In this document: piece by piece, positions 23,195 through 28,118 of the stretch
Numbering within the stretch: the stretch's first letter is position 1
Layout of the letters: each line of letters opens with the position of its first letter
From: Escherichia coli 042
Lineage (GTDB): Bacteria > Pseudomonadota > Gammaproteobacteria > Enterobacterales > Enterobacteriaceae
Reading direction: 5' to 3' (one strand)
DNA: 64,000 nucleotides
Assembly: GCF_000027125.1 (NCBI RefSeq)
Contig: NC_017626.1
Position numbers and translations under genes: made by a program
Notes under the pieces: generated by a model
The model's database searches: none
Told to the model about the DNA's origin: nothing
The model's input: the letters and a program-made list of their open reading frames with translations, nothing else

Positions 23195-24322
23195 TTACGC
23201 CATTGTCCCAATCGTCTTCCTGAATCGCAGCAGTGCGATGGTGAAAAACGCGCCGCCAATTGCCATCAGCGTCAGGAACTGCGACCAGACGATTTCGAAT
23301 CCTGCACCACGGTAGAGAATGGCCTGCGCGAGGCTAACAAAGTGTGTCGTCGGCATGGTCAGCATAATGTCCTGCACCATCTGCGGCATACTTTCGCGCG
23401 GCGTAGAGCCACCGGAAAGCATTTGCAGCGGCAGCAGCACCAGAATCACCAGCAGCCCCAGTTGCGGCATTGAACGCGCTATCGTCCCCATAAAAATGCC
23501 GATTGACGTGGTGGCAAACAGACTAAGCGCCACGCCCAGCATAAACAGCGGGATCGAGCCTTCAATCGGTACGCCCAGCACGCCTTTTACCATCAGCACC
23601 AGTGATAATCCCGATACCACCAGCACCACCAACCCCATCGACCAGATCTTCGCCATCATGATCTCAAACGGCGTTATCGGCATCACAAGTAAGTGTTCCA
23701 CCGTGCCGTGTTCACGCTCGCGGATCAGCGCCGATCCGGTCAATACAATCGCCAGCATGGTAATGTTGTTGATGATTGCCATCACCCCGCCAAACCACGC
23801 GGGATCAAGGTTCGGGTTGAAGCGCATCCGGGTTTCCAGCGATACCAACGGTTCGCTGTTATCACGGTAGCGCGCGACAAAGCTGTTCACTTCACCGTTG
23901 ATAATATTCTGGATATACCCATTGCCGGTAAATGCCTGACTCATGCGCGTGGCATCGACGTTCACCTGAATATCCGGCTGGCGTCCGGCGAGGACATCAC
24001 GCTGAAAATTAGGCGGAATATTTATCGCGAAGGTATAGCGTCCGGCGTCCAGTCCGGCATCCATCTCATCGGCGGTGATCATCTCCGGTGGCAAAAACCA
24101 CGGGCGATAGAAGCTGTTAACAATCCGGTTCGACAACTGCGATTGATCCATATCGGCAATGGCGATCGGCGCGAGGTTCAACGATCCTGGCGTGACGGTC
24201 GCTGACGAATACACCGATACCGTAAACGAGAAAACAATCAACGTCAGCATCGCTTTATCACCGAGCAGACTGCGCAACTCTTTGATACCCAGATTAAAAA
24301 TATTGCGTAAATGGCGCATCAT
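23195..24322 (-). CDS. yhhJ: ABC-2 type transporter permease YhhJ
   Basis: ORF 23195-24403; start at the ATGATG overlapping the rbbA stop (24322 or 24319), giving about 375 aa ([17 protein letters not shown]...). Confidence 0.85.
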
Positions 24323-27054
24323 CCCTCCTGTTTTTTCAGCAGCAGGATGCTTAAGCCCATCACCAGCGGTATGGCTATCAGCAGCGGGATAAAAAGTTGC
24401 CACAAATCAGTCAGATCCAGCGCTTTCGAGAACGTCCCGCGGGCGATAGTCAGAAAATGACTGGTCGGGTAAACCTCGCCGATCCAACGTCCTGGACCTT
24501 CCAGCGAAGCTACCGGATCGATCATCCCGGAAAACTGTGTCGCCGGGATCAACGTGATAATCGCCGTACCGAAAATGGCGGCAATCTGGCTTTTCATAAA
24601 GGTGGAGATCAGCAGCCCCATTCCGGTGGCGATGATGATATACAGCAGCGCCGCCAGGGTGAGCGTCAGGAAACTGCCTTTATGCGGTACGCCAAACACA
24701 AACACCGACAGGCCGCAGAGCAGGAAAAAGTTCAGCATCCCCAGCGCGATGTACGGTAGCTGTTTGCCAAGCAAAAATTCGCTACGGGTGGTGGGAGTCA
24801 CGTAAAGGTTGATAATCGACCCCAACTCTTTTTCCCGCACCACGCTAAGGGCGCTTAGCATTGACGGGATCATCATCAGCAGAAGCGGGATCACCGCCGG
24901 AACAATCGCTGGCAGGCTTTTTACGTCCGGGTTATAGCGATAGCGCGTCTCAATGTTCATCAGCCCGCTTTGGCTGGAGGGTGTGGATTGTCGGCTCGCC
25001 ACATCCTGTAGCCAGCTCTGGTGCATAGCCTGCACGTAACCTTTTACCGTTTCGGCACGACTGGGCATCGCACCGTCGATCCAGACACCGAGTTCCACAG
25101 GCGTACCACGCGCGATATCGCGCCCGAAATTGGGTGGGATCTCAATTGCCACCGTGATATCGCCCGCACGCATCCGACGATCAAGCTCGTCATAACTGGT
25201 GAGCGGTGGTTGTTCGATAAAGTAACGGGAACCGGAGAGATTGAGCGTCCACGCCTGGCTACTGACGGTCTGGTCGCGGTCGAGCACCGCAAAGCGCAGG
25301 TTTTCCACATCCATACTGATGCCGTAACCCATTATCAGCATCAGGATCACCGTTCCCATCAGCGCCAGCGTCGAACGTACCGGATCGCGGCGCAGTTCCA
25401 GTGCTTCGCGACGGCTGTAGCTAAACAGACGTCGCAGGCTAAATCCCTGACGCGGCGCGTGGGTGGTGTCATGTACCACGGGCGGCGCTTCGGCTTCGCT
25501 GCTCTGCCCTGCCGCTTCCTGCAAATAGGCGATAAATGCCTCTTCCAGACTGGCGGATCCGCGTTTCTCAACCAGTTCCTGCGGTGTCCCGCTGGCGAGC
25601 ACTTTTCCGGCGTGCATCAGTGAGATACGGTCGCAACGTTCCGCTTCGTTCATAAAGTGGGTGGAGATGAAGATAGTCACTTTGTCCTGGCGCGAGAGAT
25701 CGACCATCAACTGCCAGAACATATCCCTCGCCACCGGATCGACGCCAGAAGTAGGCTCATCGAGGATTAACATCTCCGGGCGATGAATCACCGCCACCGC
25801 CAGCGAAAGCCGCTGGCGAATGCCGAGCGGCAATGACTCCGGCAGAACATCTTCAACGTCGTTGAGCTTAAAACGCTCGCTCATTTCAGCCACTCGCGCG
25901 GGAATTTCCGCTTCCGGGATGTGAAACAAACGGGCATGTAACTCCAGGTTTTGCCGCACGGTGAGCTCGTTATAGAGCGAAAACGCCTGCGACATATAGC
26001 CTACCCGACGGCGAGTATCGATATCTTTTGGATCAACCGGTTGCCCGAACAACCACGCCTCACCTTCGCTGGCGGGCAACAATCCGGTAAGCATTTTCAT
26101 GGTGGTGGATTTACCGCAGCCGTTCGAACCAAGAAAACCAAAAATCTCCCCGCGTGGAATGCGGAAATTGACGTGATCAACGGCAACGAAGGAACCAAAA
26201 CGCATGGTCAGATCGCGCGCTTCGATGGCAATCTCTGCGTTTTCCGGTTGATATGGTGGGATCACTACCGCCTGATGCGCCTGGCGTTGCGCTTGCGGTA
26301 ACAGATTTATAAACGCCTCTTCCAGCGTCGCACTTTGCGTTTGCTGCCGCAGCTCTTCGGCGCTGCCGGTTGCCAGCACTTCTCCGGCATTCATCGCTAC
26401 CAGCCAGTCGAAGCGTTCGGCCTCTTCCATGTAGGCGGTGGCGACCAGCACGCTCATATTGCTCTGCCGCTGGCGAATACTGTCGATCAGATCCCAGAAT
26501 TGGGCGCGGGAGAGCGGGTCAACCCCCGTTGTTGGCTCATCAAGAATCAACAGTTCCGGGTCGTGGATTAACGCACAGCACAGCCCAAGTTTTTGCTTCA
26601 TCCCGCCGGAGAGTTTACCTGCCGGACGATCGCGAAACGGTGCTAACCCGGTGCTGGTCAGCAGCTCATTAATTCGCACTTCCCGCTCCGCTTTGTCGTG
26701 ACCGAACAGGCGGGCGAAAAAATCGACGTTTTCATACACCGACAAGGTGTGGTAGAGGTTTTTGCCCAGCCCTTGCGGCATCCAGGCGATGCGCGGGCAA
26801 ACGTCACGGCGATGCTTCGGGTCGCGAATATCGCCGCCCAGCACGATCACATTGCCCTGCTCAATGACACGAGCACCGGAAATCAATGACAATAAACTCG
26901 ACTTCCCGACGCCATCCGGACCAATCAGCCCAACCATGCAGCGGGCCGGAATATCGAGAGTGATATTGTTCAGCGCAACGGTTTTTCCATAATGCTGGCT
27001 CACGCCCGCCAGTTGCGCGACAGGCGGGACGGGACCCAGTTCCAGATGCGTCAT
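24319..27054 (-). CDS. rbbA: Ribosome-associated ATPase RbbA (tandem ABC ATPase domains fused to ABC-2 permease domain)
   Basis: 911 aa; two Walker A sites ([18 protein letters not shown]) and two LSGG signatures, C-terminal membrane domain. Confidence 0.9.
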
Positions 27055-28118
27055 TGCGGCAACCTCACCACCAGGTCGTCAGGCCACGGAAGTTCTTCAT
27101 TCACCCGCACCCACGCTACGCCCGGCAAACCGGTTTTGACATATTCCAGATGCTGCTGGAGTAATTCCGGTGGGATACGCGCTTTGACGCGGAACATCAG
27201 TTTCAGCCGTTCATCGCTGGTTTCGACGGTTTTTGGCGTGAACTGGGCGACGCTGGCGACAAAACTGATGGTTGCAGGAATACGCAGATCTGGCGCGGCA
27301 TCGAGGATCAGCCGTGCTTCACCGCCCAGTTTCAGCGTGCCCGCCTGTTCGGTTGGCAGGAAAAAGGTCATATAGACGTCGCTGAGATCGACCATATTCA
27401 GTACCCGACCGCCTGCCGCCAGCACTTCCCCTGGCTCGGCAACCCGATACTGCACGCGTCCGTCACGCGGGGCTTTCAGTTCGCTGTCATCGATATCTGC
27501 GGCAATACGCCGTTCAGTGGCTTGCGCGGCTTCGACGCGAGTTTGCACCTGAATGATATTGGTGCGTGCCGCTTCTATAGCGGCTTTAGAAGCCGAAACC
27601 TGGGCTTTTGCTGATTCCAGCGCAGCTCGGGCGCTCTCAGCGGCGGCGCGATCGTCATCCAGCTGTTGCGCAGAAATAGCCCCTCGTTGGGCGAGCGAGC
27701 GGGAACGCGTATGACGTTTAGCCACGGAGTCCAGTTCGGCCTGGCGTTGATTGACCAGCGACTGTGCGGCACGAGTTTCGCTTTGTCGTTGCTCCAGCAA
27801 AGCCTGCGCGGCGGCAACGGCGCTTTGTGCTTCTTTGATTTGCGCGATGGCTTCCAGTCGCTGTTCCTGCAACACGCGAGTATCCATCTTCGCCAGCACT
27901 TCACCTTCGCGAACAAACTGGCCTTCTTTCACCAGAATGGTGTCGATACGCCCGGCAATTTTGCTGGCGATATCCACTTCCGTCGCTTCAATGCGCCCAT
28001 TGCTGACGGCAAAGCCTTCCGGCACACCTGCCGGGCGCAACAGCCACCACGCCACGATAGCAGCCACCGCCAGTAACCCGACAACCCACCACGCCAGATG
28101 GCGCTTACTCTTATCCAT
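27051..28118 (-). CDS. yhiI: HlyD-family membrane fusion protein YhiI
   Basis: 355 aa; N-terminal membrane anchor, long coiled-coil, C-terminal beta domain; translationally coupled to rbbA. Confidence 0.9.

What the first reader, a model, noticed from the sequence alone, without database searches (positions are those of the whole stretch)
23195..28118. yhiI-rbbA-yhhJ: fused double-ATPase/permease with membrane fusion protein and separate ABC-2 permease
The 911 aa RbbA has two complete ABC ATPase domains plus a C-terminal ABC-2 permease domain. It is translationally coupled upstream to a HlyD-type membrane fusion protein (YhiI) and downstream to a stand-alone ABC-2 permease (YhhJ, start overlapping the rbbA stop as ATGATG). 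This architecture looks like a tripartite efflux system, although RbbA has been described as ribosome-associated; the operon context argues that an export function deserves testing.
Basis: partly seen in the sequence, partly recalled or inferred. Interest (0 to 1): 0.25.

Follow-up and report, generated by a model that had tools for sequence, protein, structure and literature searches.

The report
Known E. coli ABC exporter operon

Summary
On the minus strand lie yhiI (28118..27051, 355 aa, HlyD/EmrA-type adaptor), rbbA (27054..24319, 911 aa, NBD-NBD-ABC-2 permease) and yhhJ (24319/24322..23195, ABC-2 permease). The junctions overlap (ATGA and GGATGATG).

The operon is core E. coli (5413 of 5426 complete genomes). 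It is a collinear paralogue of ybhG-ybhF-ybhS-ybhR in which F and S are fused.

Three results favour an envelope-spanning exporter:
- The adaptor-RbbA-permease triad is present in every one of 73 orthologous loci where the flank is visible. A TolC-family gene sits next to it in 21.
- The YhiI model is EmrA-like. It has a hairpin of about 95 Å whose tip carries the R-L-S motif aligned with that of MacA.
- The YhhJ model has the type V exporter fold.

"Two complete ATPase domains" needs a qualifier. NBD1 has Tyr in place of the H-loop His and NBD2 has LPLGI in place of LSGGQ. This holds in all 74 sequences, giving one degenerate and one consensus ATP site.

RbbA lacks the ABCF hallmarks. A published RbbA-mCherry fusion is membrane-wide, and the 2011 ribosome/YhjD paper was retracted in 2025.

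The substrate and TolC dependence remain untested. The pump prediction is already in the literature and in annotation.

The parts
27051..28118 (-). yhiI: inner-membrane-anchored periplasmic adaptor (membrane fusion protein), 355 aa. It has a TM helix at residues 3-27, a lipoyl domain, a two-helix hairpin at 81-144/150-211 and a beta-barrel.
   Evidence: ORF. Pfam HlyD_3, HlyD_D23 and Biotin_lipoyl_2. AlphaFold model with pLDDT 92.4. Best Foldseek hits are EmrA of EmrAB-TolC (8zal, 1.6e-21) and MacA. 30% identity to YbhG.
27672..27707 (-). Hairpin-tip motif R138-x3-L142-x6-S149 of YhiI ([12 protein letters not shown]).
   Evidence: Translation. HMMER aligns these residues with MacA R131/L135/S142. 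Across 53 adaptors of RbbA-type operons, R is kept in 51, L in 51 and S in 39.
24319..27054 (-). rbbA (yhiH): fused NBD1-NBD2-TMD half of the transporter, 911 aa.
   Evidence: ORF. NCBIfam NF033858 at 1593.6 bits. Pfam 2x ABC_tran plus ABC2_membrane_3. NBDs 41% identical to YbhF. TMD 32% identical to YbhS, E 2e-53.
26320..27021 (-). NBD1 (about aa 12-245): Walker A GPDGVGKS, signature LSGGM, Walker B LLILDEP, and Tyr208 at the H-loop position (26433..26431).
   Evidence: Motif scan, translation and conservation in 74 of 74 sequences.
25540..26229 (-). NBD2 (about aa 276-505): Walker A GSNGCGKS, degenerate signature LPLGI (25833..25819), Walker B MLILDEP and canonical H-loop STH466.
   Evidence: YbhF shows the same pattern, as do ten distant representatives.
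24322..25437 (-). RbbA transmembrane domain (aa 540-911): connecting helix, TM1, periplasmic domain of about 140 aa, TM2 to TM6, and the coupling motif VVREKELGS.
   Evidence: Hydropathy, Pfam residues 569-903 and 28% identity to YhhJ.
23195..24322 (-). yhhJ: stand-alone ABC-2 permease of 374 or 375 aa that supplies the second transmembrane domain. RefSeq places the start at 24319.
   Evidence: ORF and annotation. Pfam ABC2_membrane_3. Model pLDDT 86.7. Foldseek hits are ABCH-9C (1.6e-11), NosY, ABCA3/4/1/7 and ABCG25. Closer to YbhR (E 1e-33) than to YbhS.
28181..28294 (-). yhiY: 37-codon upstream ORF in the operon leader (MMTTLLPVFTKPSTLALNALRAGRICRFLLIPDGRIR).
   Evidence: RefSeq annotation and ORF list. 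Named as a candidate uORF-dependent regulatory site with a 3' end less than 200 nt downstream (bioRxiv 10.1101/2020.07.18.207399).
28119..28335 (-). Conserved 5' leader of the operon. It is the reported site of Rho-dependent premature termination.
   Evidence: Near-invariant in E. coli, E. albertii and Citrobacter werkmanii. Present in 5412 of 5426 E. coli genomes. A yhiI fusion was more than 2-fold higher in rho R66S. It has no Rfam match, and its fold is not exceptional (z -1.5).
28452..28479 (-). Sigma-70-like hexamer pair (TAGACA, 16 nt, TG-n-TACTAT). A possible promoter with weak support.
   Evidence: Consensus scan found no more sites than in shuffled sequence. This stretch is missing in about 20% of E. 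coli genomes and is not conserved in E. albertii.
23105..23194 (.). Spacer of 90 nt between the convergent yhhJ and class II aldolase genes. It has strong hairpins and a REP-like GCCGGATGCGGCG, and is a likely 3' end or stabiliser.
   Evidence: Sequence. RNA fold of -33.5 kcal/mol, z -3.39. No T-run terminator was found there.

Best explanation
yhiI-rbbA-yhhJ encodes one transport machine.

Shown:
- RbbA supplies both ATPase domains and one six-helix ABC-2 (type V fold) membrane domain. YhhJ supplies the second membrane domain. Together they make a 2 NBD : 2 TMD full transporter.
- Only one of the two ATP sites has consensus catalytic motifs: NBD2 Walker A/B/His466 paired with the NBD1 LSGGM signature. 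The other site is degenerate (NBD1 Tyr208 paired with NBD2 LPLGI).
- YhiI is anchored in the inner membrane by one helix. It is modelled with a coiled-coil hairpin of about 95 Å whose tip carries the R-L-S motif.
- The gene architecture, domain content, motif pattern, folds, paralogy and conserved linkage, including to TolC-family genes, all come from tool results.

Taken from the literature:
- Expression is held down by Rho-dependent premature termination in a conserved leader that contains the small ORF yhiY.

Inferred:
- The degenerate site acts as a regulatory or structural site.
[quoted passage not shown] - ATP hydrolysis therefore expels a still-unknown substrate out of the cell. The closest solved relatives (ABCA, ABCH, NosY, KpsM) suggest a hydrophobic or lipid-like molecule taken from the membrane.
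- The ribosome association of RbbA is most simply a property of the overproduced, TM-truncated tandem ATPase, or of membrane co-sedimentation.
For: - Domains and junctions.
- Paralogy: the operon is collinear with ybhG-ybhF-ybhS-ybhR. YhiI~YbhG E 1e-29; RbbA NBDs~YbhF E 2e-70; RbbA TMD~YbhS 2e-53, better than YbhR 3e-35; YhhJ~YbhR 1e-33, better than YbhS 2e-22.
- The coupling-helix motif R-E-x-E-x-G-T is invariant in YhhJ-like permeases and present in the RbbA TMD. YhhJ therefore needs an NBD it does not encode, and RbbA has one NBD to spare.
- Linkage in 73 orthologous loci from named genomes: the adaptor is present in all 68 loci whose upstream DNA is visible, and the permease in all 71 whose downstream DNA is visible.
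- Junction spacing: 4-nt overlap at adaptor/RbbA in 40 of 69 loci; RbbA/permease gap within 15 nt in 67 of 71.
- A gene of one family lies adjacent on the same strand in 21 of 73 loci. All five members scanned hit Pfam OEP PF02321. Independently, Zymomonas has a HlyD-RbbA-permease-TolC operon (PMC11989028).
- YhiI model and its EmrA/MacA matches, including chains from EmrAB-TolC and MacAB-TolC assemblies. Tip motif aligned with MacA R131/L135/S142.
- YhhJ model matches type V exporters. The RbbA NBDs are closest to ABCA3/4/1/7, ABCH-9C, Rv1218c and NosF and to the DrrA/NodI/GldA models.
- RbbA-mCherry is distributed through the membrane and RbbA is in inner-membrane preparations (PMC6788730).
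- Full-length RbbA is reported as unstable, so the translation work uses a form lacking the TMD (PMC12096078).
- The 2011 RbbA/YhjD/ribosome paper is retracted.
Against: - No substrate, transport phenotype, complex or TolC dependence has been shown for this system in anything I could read.
- Over-expression of yhiH-yhhJ gave only a small change in one product-export screen (PMC11026601).
- E. coli and the other Enterobacterales, Pseudomonas and Rhizobiales loci have no linked outer-membrane gene. TolC use there is an extrapolation.
- Several in-vitro studies, up to 2025, report that truncated RbbA stimulates translation 1.3- to 2.1-fold and is thought to bind the E site. I cannot test these.
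- The structural models are monomers. No complex was modelled.
Confidence: 0.72

Rival explanations
1. RbbA is primarily a translation elongation factor. In this view it is a ribosome-bound ATPase that helps eject deacylated tRNA from the E site, and its membrane domain and neighbours are incidental.
For: Reports summarised in PMC12096078, PMC3083400 (retracted) and PMC8807479 describe ribosome binding, stimulation of poly-Phe synthesis and E-site footprints. In a reconstituted system, 0.5-1 uM truncated RbbA raised yields 1.3- to 2.1-fold.
Against: - RbbA has a full ABC-2 membrane domain and is found in the membrane in vivo.
- It has no ABC_tran_Xtn/PtIM linker even at a permissive threshold.
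- Its NBDs are most similar to those of ABC-2 exporters.
- The gene is always flanked by an adaptor and a permease, and often by a TolC-family gene.
- It is non-essential according to the papers read.
- The activity was measured only with a TM-truncated protein.
- The main in-vivo paper is retracted.
Confidence: 0.05
2. RbbA has a genuine dual function. The membrane-anchored transporter's cytoplasmic tandem NBDs also dock on ribosomes, or a cleaved soluble fragment does. This would link translation status to export, or recruit ribosomes to the pump.
For: It would reconcile the in-vitro translation effects with the transporter architecture. The operon leader is itself controlled through a translated uORF and Rho.
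Against: Nothing in the sequence is specific to ribosome binding. Tandem ABC ATPases added at micromolar levels may act non-specifically; high concentrations were inhibitory. The paralogue YbhF has the same NBD pattern without any such claim.
Confidence: 0.1
3. The system is a membrane machine but not a TolC-coupled efflux pump. It might move or extract an envelope lipid, glycolipid or lipoprotein only as far as the periplasm or outer membrane, or act as a mechanotransducer in the manner of LolCDE, FtsEX or DevBCA-like systems.
For: The closest solved folds and sequences are lipid handlers (ABCA, ABCH-9C with ceramide), NosDFY and KpsMT. No outer-membrane gene is linked in E. coli. No drug phenotype is known.
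Against: TolC-family genes are adjacent in 21 of 73 orthologous operons. YhiI has the long hairpin and tip motif of TolC-docking adaptors.
Confidence: 0.1

Closest known systems
E. coli YbhG-YbhF-YbhS-YbhR (cecR-ybhGFSR), a putative ABC-2 efflux system
   Same: The gene order is collinear: adaptor, tandem-NBD ATPase, two ABC-2 permeases. All parts are homologous pairwise. The asymmetric NBD motif pattern is the same, with STSY in NBD1 and LPLGF in NBD2. An MFP is present and TolC is presumed (PMC7190983).
   Different: In RbbA the ATPase and the first permease are one polypeptide. The inter-NBD insert of about 60-70 aa seen in YbhF is absent. No TetR regulator is adjacent; instead there is a uORF/Rho leader. 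YbhFSR has reported drug phenotypes. YhiI-RbbA-YhhJ has none.
MacAB-TolC (ABC-type tripartite pump)
   Same: It is an ABC transporter plus a periplasmic adaptor plus TolC. The YhiI model matches MacA, and its tip R-L-S residues align with MacA R131/L135/S142.
   Different: MacB is a type VII/FtsX-fold homodimer with four TM helices. RbbA/YhhJ have six-helix ABC-2 domains and no FtsX hit. Grouping YbhFSR with MacB, as in the review I read, does not fit these domains. YhiI appears to lack a membrane-proximal domain.
EmrA of EmrAB-TolC
   Same: It is the best structural and sequence match to YhiI. Both have an N-terminal TM anchor, a lipoyl domain, a long hairpin and a beta-barrel.
   Different: EmrA partners an MFS transporter, not an ABC transporter. 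Sequence identity is only 17-19%.
Type V ABC exporters with an extracytoplasmic domain (ABCA1/3/4/7, insect ABCH-9C, NosDFY, KpsMT, ABCG)
   Same: The TMD fold matches and these NBDs are the closest solved ones. A large domain lies between TM1 and TM2.
   Different: The eukaryotic proteins have no adaptor or outer-membrane partner. Identity is about 20% or less. The substrates of those proteins say nothing certain about this one.
ABCF / EF-3-type ribosome-binding ATPases (EttA, Uup, YbiT, YheS)
   Same: Both have two tandem ABC ATPase domains. RbbA is used alongside them in vitro as an 'E-site binder'.
   Different: ABCF proteins are soluble and have a long inter-NBD linker (Pfam ABC_tran_Xtn; this is established knowledge). 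RbbA has a membrane domain, a linker of about 30 aa and no such Pfam hit. Its best family models are DrrA, NodI and GldA.

Membership tests
[quoted passage not shown] | Whole-protein score above the curated cut-off of 1050 bits over the full-length model. | tested here: met
   1593.6 bits; residues 12-910 match model positions 1-908 of 909.
ABC-2 / type V ABC exporter | ABC ATPase domains with Walker A, Walker B and signature motifs. | tested here: met
   Pfam ABC_tran x2, E 2.6e-60, and motifs. One composite site is degenerate.
ABC-2 / type V ABC exporter | Membrane domain of the ABC2_membrane families with six TM helices. | tested here: met
   ABC2_membrane_3, ABC2_membrane and ABC2_membrane_2 hits for both the RbbA C-terminus and YhhJ. 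Six hydrophobic segments in RbbA.
ABC-2 / type V ABC exporter | Fold like solved type V exporters. | tested here: met
   YhhJ model (pLDDT 86.7) matches ABCH-9C at 1.6e-11, then NosY, ABCA3/4/1/7, ABCG25 and KpsM.
ABC-2 / type V ABC exporter | ATP-dependent export of a substrate. | not testable with these tools
   No substrate was reported in the papers read.
Tripartite (adaptor + outer-membrane factor) efflux system | A membrane fusion protein/periplasmic adaptor encoded with the transporter. | tested here: met
   yhiI overlaps rbbA by 4 nt. The adaptor is present in 68 of 68 orthologous loci with visible upstream DNA.
Tripartite (adaptor + outer-membrane factor) efflux system | An adaptor alpha-hairpin with the conserved tip motif used to meet TolC-type channels. 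The role of R-x3-L-x6-S is from established knowledge of AcrA and MacA. | tested here: met
   Helices at 81-144 and 150-211. R138/L142/S149 align with MacA R131/L135/S142 and are conserved in 51, 51 and 39 of 53 sequences.
Tripartite (adaptor + outer-membrane factor) efflux system | An outer-membrane factor gene in the operon. | tested here: not met
   No OEP-family gene lies next to the operon in the window. One is present next to orthologous operons in 21 of 73 loci. Most E. coli pumps use the unlinked tolC (established knowledge).
Tripartite (adaptor + outer-membrane factor) efflux system | Function depends on TolC or another outer-membrane channel, and the complex assembles physically. | not testable with these tools
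   Needs genetics and biochemistry.
ABCF / EF-3-like translation ATPases | A soluble protein without a transmembrane domain. | tested here: not met
   ABC-2 domain at 569-903 and six TM segments. Membrane localisation is published.
ABCF / EF-3-like translation ATPases | Inter-NBD linker domain (Pfam ABC_tran_Xtn/PtIM). | tested here: not met
   There is no such hit for the whole protein at E<=0.001. It is also absent from the 25 best hits, all with E<=0.19, for residues 1-540 at threshold 10. The linker is about 30 aa.
ABCF / EF-3-like translation ATPases | Binds the ribosomal E site and modulates translation. | not testable with these tools
   Claimed in the literature for truncated RbbA. The key in-vivo paper is retracted.
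MacB/FtsX (type VII) ABC transporters | A four-helix FtsX-type membrane domain with a periplasmic domain between TM1 and TM2. | tested here: not met
   No FtsX hit; ABC2_membrane hits and six helices instead.

The most novel reading that the evidence does not exclude
RbbA is a bona fide two-faced protein. It would be the motor of an envelope-spanning exporter whose cytoplasmic tandem ATPase also engages the ribosomal E site in vivo. Translation state and export would then be physically coupled, with the yhiY/Rho leader providing a second, translation-sensing layer of control.
Probability: 0.08. Interest if true: 0.65.

Novelty: already known. Interest (0 to 1): 0.22.

Why it matters
RbbA is still treated as a translation factor in current work, while its gene sits in what looks like a complete efflux machine of unknown substrate that nearly every E. 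coli carries. Settling the question would remove a long-standing mis-assignment, or reveal a real moonlighting protein. It would also give a function to one of the last uncharacterised adaptor-dependent ABC systems of E. coli. The conserved degenerate/consensus ATP-site pair and the uORF/Rho leader give concrete handles for doing so. None of this is a new discovery, because the pump prediction is already in the literature and in the gene name.

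Tried and rejected
- The word-indexed homologue search returned only near-identical E. coli proteins. Diversity came from the representative library and the genome scan.
- Rfam found nothing in the operon or leader apart from a chance-level hit.
- The leader fold is not more stable than shuffled sequence (z -1.5).
- The promoter scan found no more sites than shuffles did. The one candidate is in a poorly conserved stretch.
- I looked for further conserved neighbours that might name a cargo. 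Small flanking genes are heterogeneous: 2 TetR, 1 MarR, acetyltransferases and others. Larger non-OMF neighbours are unrelated: an ABC1 kinase, a FliL-domain protein and a DAO oxidoreductase.
- ABCF membership was rejected. MacB/FtsX membership was rejected.
- My first ORF filter missed five permeases. tblastn showed they are present.
- Locus L002 was not exported to the script machine, so the YbhGFSR comparisons were done with the comparison tool.
- Nishino & Yamaguchi 2001 is not held, and the cap on papers stopped a look at a Salmonella yhiH report.
- No multimer model could be made with the tools.

Full report
**Observation**

The stated interval holds three long minus-strand ORFs with the stated lengths:
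- yhiI, 28118..27051 (355 aa)
- rbbA, 27054..24319 (911 aa)
- yhhJ, ending at 23195

The yhiI stop and rbbA start share ATGA (CAATGACG). The rbbA TGA lies inside GGATGATG, and an AGGAGG sits just upstream. RefSeq annotation of a 100%-identical strain uses the second ATG for yhhJ (24319, 374 aa).

Pfam and NCBIfam confirm the domains. YhiI is HlyD/RND_mfp/EmrA-like. RbbA has two ABC_tran domains plus ABC2_membrane_3 and scores 1593.6 bits against the RbbA equivalog, whose cut-off is 1050. YhhJ is an ABC-2 permease. The locus is core E. coli, present in 5413 of 5426 complete genomes, always on the chromosome.

**A correction to "two complete ATPase domains"**

Both NBDs keep Walker A and B. NBD1 has Tyr208 where the H-loop histidine should be (ATAYME). 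NBD2 has LPLGI in place of LSGGQ. NBD1 keeps LSGGM and NBD2 keeps STH466.

In an ABC dimer each ATP site is built from the Walker and H-loop motifs of one NBD and the signature of the other (established knowledge). The protein therefore has one degenerate and one consensus site. The pattern is found in all of the following:
- all 74 aligned orthologues
- ten representatives down to 32% identity, with one partial exception: P0175 keeps His at the NBD1 H-loop position
- the paralogue YbhF

**What the three proteins are to each other**

RbbA has two NBDs and one membrane domain. YhhJ has none and one. The sum is a canonical 2:2 transporter. YhhJ is 28% identical to the RbbA membrane domain. Both carry the cytoplasmic R-E-x-E-x-G-T coupling motif, which is invariant in 62 YhhJ-like sequences.

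The operon is collinear with ybhG-ybhF-ybhS-ybhR:
- YhiI~YbhG, E 1e-29
- RbbA NBDs~YbhF, E 2e-70
- RbbA TMD~YbhS, 2e-53, better than YbhR at 3e-35
- YhhJ~YbhR, 1e-33, better than YbhS at 2e-22

RbbA is therefore YbhF fused to YbhS.

**Related loci**

A scan of one genome per species returned 80 loci, and 73 of them carry a full-length RbbA homologue.
- The adaptor gene is upstream in 68. The other five loci begin within 204 nt of rbbA, so the adaptor cannot be seen.
- The permease is downstream in 71: 66 by ORF calling plus five by tblastn. The remaining two loci end too soon.
- The adaptor stop overlaps the RbbA start by 4 nt in 40 of 69 loci. The RbbA-to-permease gap is within 15 nt in 67 of 71 (start codons chosen by alignment).

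One further family recurs. A 450-630 aa protein lies adjacent on the same strand, usually upstream of the adaptor. All five members scanned hit Pfam OEP, the TolC family. With three loci added by inspection (L015, L049, L074), 21 of 73 loci have it. The genera include Curvibacter, Herbaspirillum, Sphingomonas, Sphingobium, Tepidimonas, Delftia, Burkholderia, Oxalobacter, Snodgrassella, Lautropia, Novacetimonas and Corallococcus, plus a Lentisphaerae genome. A paper independently lists a HlyD-RbbA-permease-TolC operon in Zymomonas.

Enterobacterales, Pseudomonas and Rhizobiales loci lack a linked gene. This is also the rule for most TolC-dependent E. coli pumps (established knowledge). No other neighbour is conserved, so context gives no clue to the cargo.

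**Structure**

No chain of RbbA, YhhJ, YhiI or YbhFSR is in the PDB copy.

The YhiI model (pLDDT 92.4) has a TM helix, a lipoyl domain, helices at 81-144 and 150-211, and a beta-barrel. At 1.5 Å per residue the hairpin is about 95 Å long (inference). Its best matches are EmrA in EmrAB-TolC (1.6e-21) and MacA in MacAB-TolC. HMMER aligns YhiI R138/L142/S149 with MacA R131/L135/S142. I recall this as the tip motif needed to meet TolC. The residues are kept in 51, 51 and 39 of 53 adaptors.

The YhhJ model (pLDDT 86.7) matches ABCH-9C (1.6e-11), NosY, ABCA3/4/1/7, ABCG25 and KpsM. This is the type V exporter fold with an extracytoplasmic domain of about 130 residues.

**The ribosome story**

RbbA has a membrane domain and a linker of about 30 aa. 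It gives no ABC_tran_Xtn hit. Its best family models are DrrA, NodI and GldA, so it is not an ABCF protein.

The published evidence stands as follows:
- RbbA-mCherry is spread through the membrane and RbbA is in inner-membrane preparations.
- Full-length RbbA is reported as unstable, and translation assays use a form without the membrane domain. The effects are 1.3- to 2.1-fold at 0.5-1 µM, with inhibition at higher doses.
[quoted passage not shown] It was retracted in 2025.

I cannot disprove ribosome binding. It is not needed to explain anything in the sequence.

**Regulation**

The leader holds the annotated 37-codon yhiY. A Term-seq study found a yhiI fusion more than 2-fold higher in rho R66S, and lists yhiY-yhiI among candidate uORF-dependent sites.

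The block from about 28335 to 28119 is almost invariant in E. coli, E. albertii and Citrobacter. The region further upstream, which includes the only sigma-70-like site found, is not conserved.

**Novelty and verdict**

'YhiH/YhhJ' is already listed among the five predicted ABC drug pumps of E. coli. The NCBI name says 'putative transporter'. The paralogue is described as a probable TolC-linked pump. I found no structure or substrate study up to mid-2026.

The finding is real, correctly read and already known. What this work adds is supporting detail: the linkage to TolC-family genes, the adaptor tip motif, the conserved asymmetric ATP sites and the mapping onto YbhFSR.

Noticed in passing
window 28119-28335 (-), with L009:1080-1463 and L010:6560-6945: The yhiI leader is almost invariant across E. 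coli, E. albertii and Citrobacter. A 22-codon ORF (MSMRVSFTARNADDDNITTRFH, 28331..28263) overlaps the yhiY start in another frame. In Citrobacter a 23-nt insertion swaps the frames, so the shared C-terminal ...LLIPDG..R is reached from that other ORF. It is unclear whether a peptide or the RNA is what is conserved.
   Followed up: partly
window about 24319-24345 (-); proteins P0001 and P0004: A few database entries hold a 1285/1286-aa RbbA-YhhJ fusion. It is made by a frameshift just before the rbbA stop, near an A6 run. This is either sequencing error or a rare natural full-length NBD-NBD-TMD-TMD form.
   Followed up: partly
L014:6874-about 17000: A Desulfuromonadales genome carries the fused version (adaptor-RbbA-YhhJ) directly followed by an unfused version (adaptor, 657-aa tandem ATPase, two permeases). 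Both architectures sit side by side.
   Followed up: no
window 23105-23194: The 90-nt spacer between the convergent yhhJ and aldolase genes folds into strong hairpins (z -3.4). It contains a REP-like GCCGGATGCGGCG.
   Followed up: partly
window 17505-23104 (+): Between nikR and yhhJ lies a sugar-use island annotated in this strain: GntR regulator, PTS IIA/IIB/IIC (galactitol type), FGGY kinase, HPr-like protein and class II aldolase.
   Followed up: no
window 28484-31957 (-): yhiJ and a second DUF4049 gene upstream of the operon are markedly AT-rich (GC 0.32-0.39, against 0.55-0.59 in the operon). This suggests foreign origin. Part of this flank varies among E. coli genomes.
   Followed up: no
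window 1-11873 (+): An acpT-linked cluster of fatty-acid/polyene-type biosynthesis genes: AMP-ligase, FabZ-like, GT2, thioesterase, LolA-like, MMPL transporter, DUF3261, two ketosynthases, a hotdog-fold protein and FabG2.
   Followed up: no
window 45854-50000 (+): The arsenic operon is annotated with arsD and arsA (regulator, arsD, arsA, arsB, arsC), not only arsB/arsC.
   Followed up: no
literature on the paralogue (PMC8277102): A major review files YbhFSR under the MacB/FtsX family and names ybhF as the adaptor gene. The domain content found here (ABC2_membrane, six helices) does not fit that placement.
   Followed up: partly
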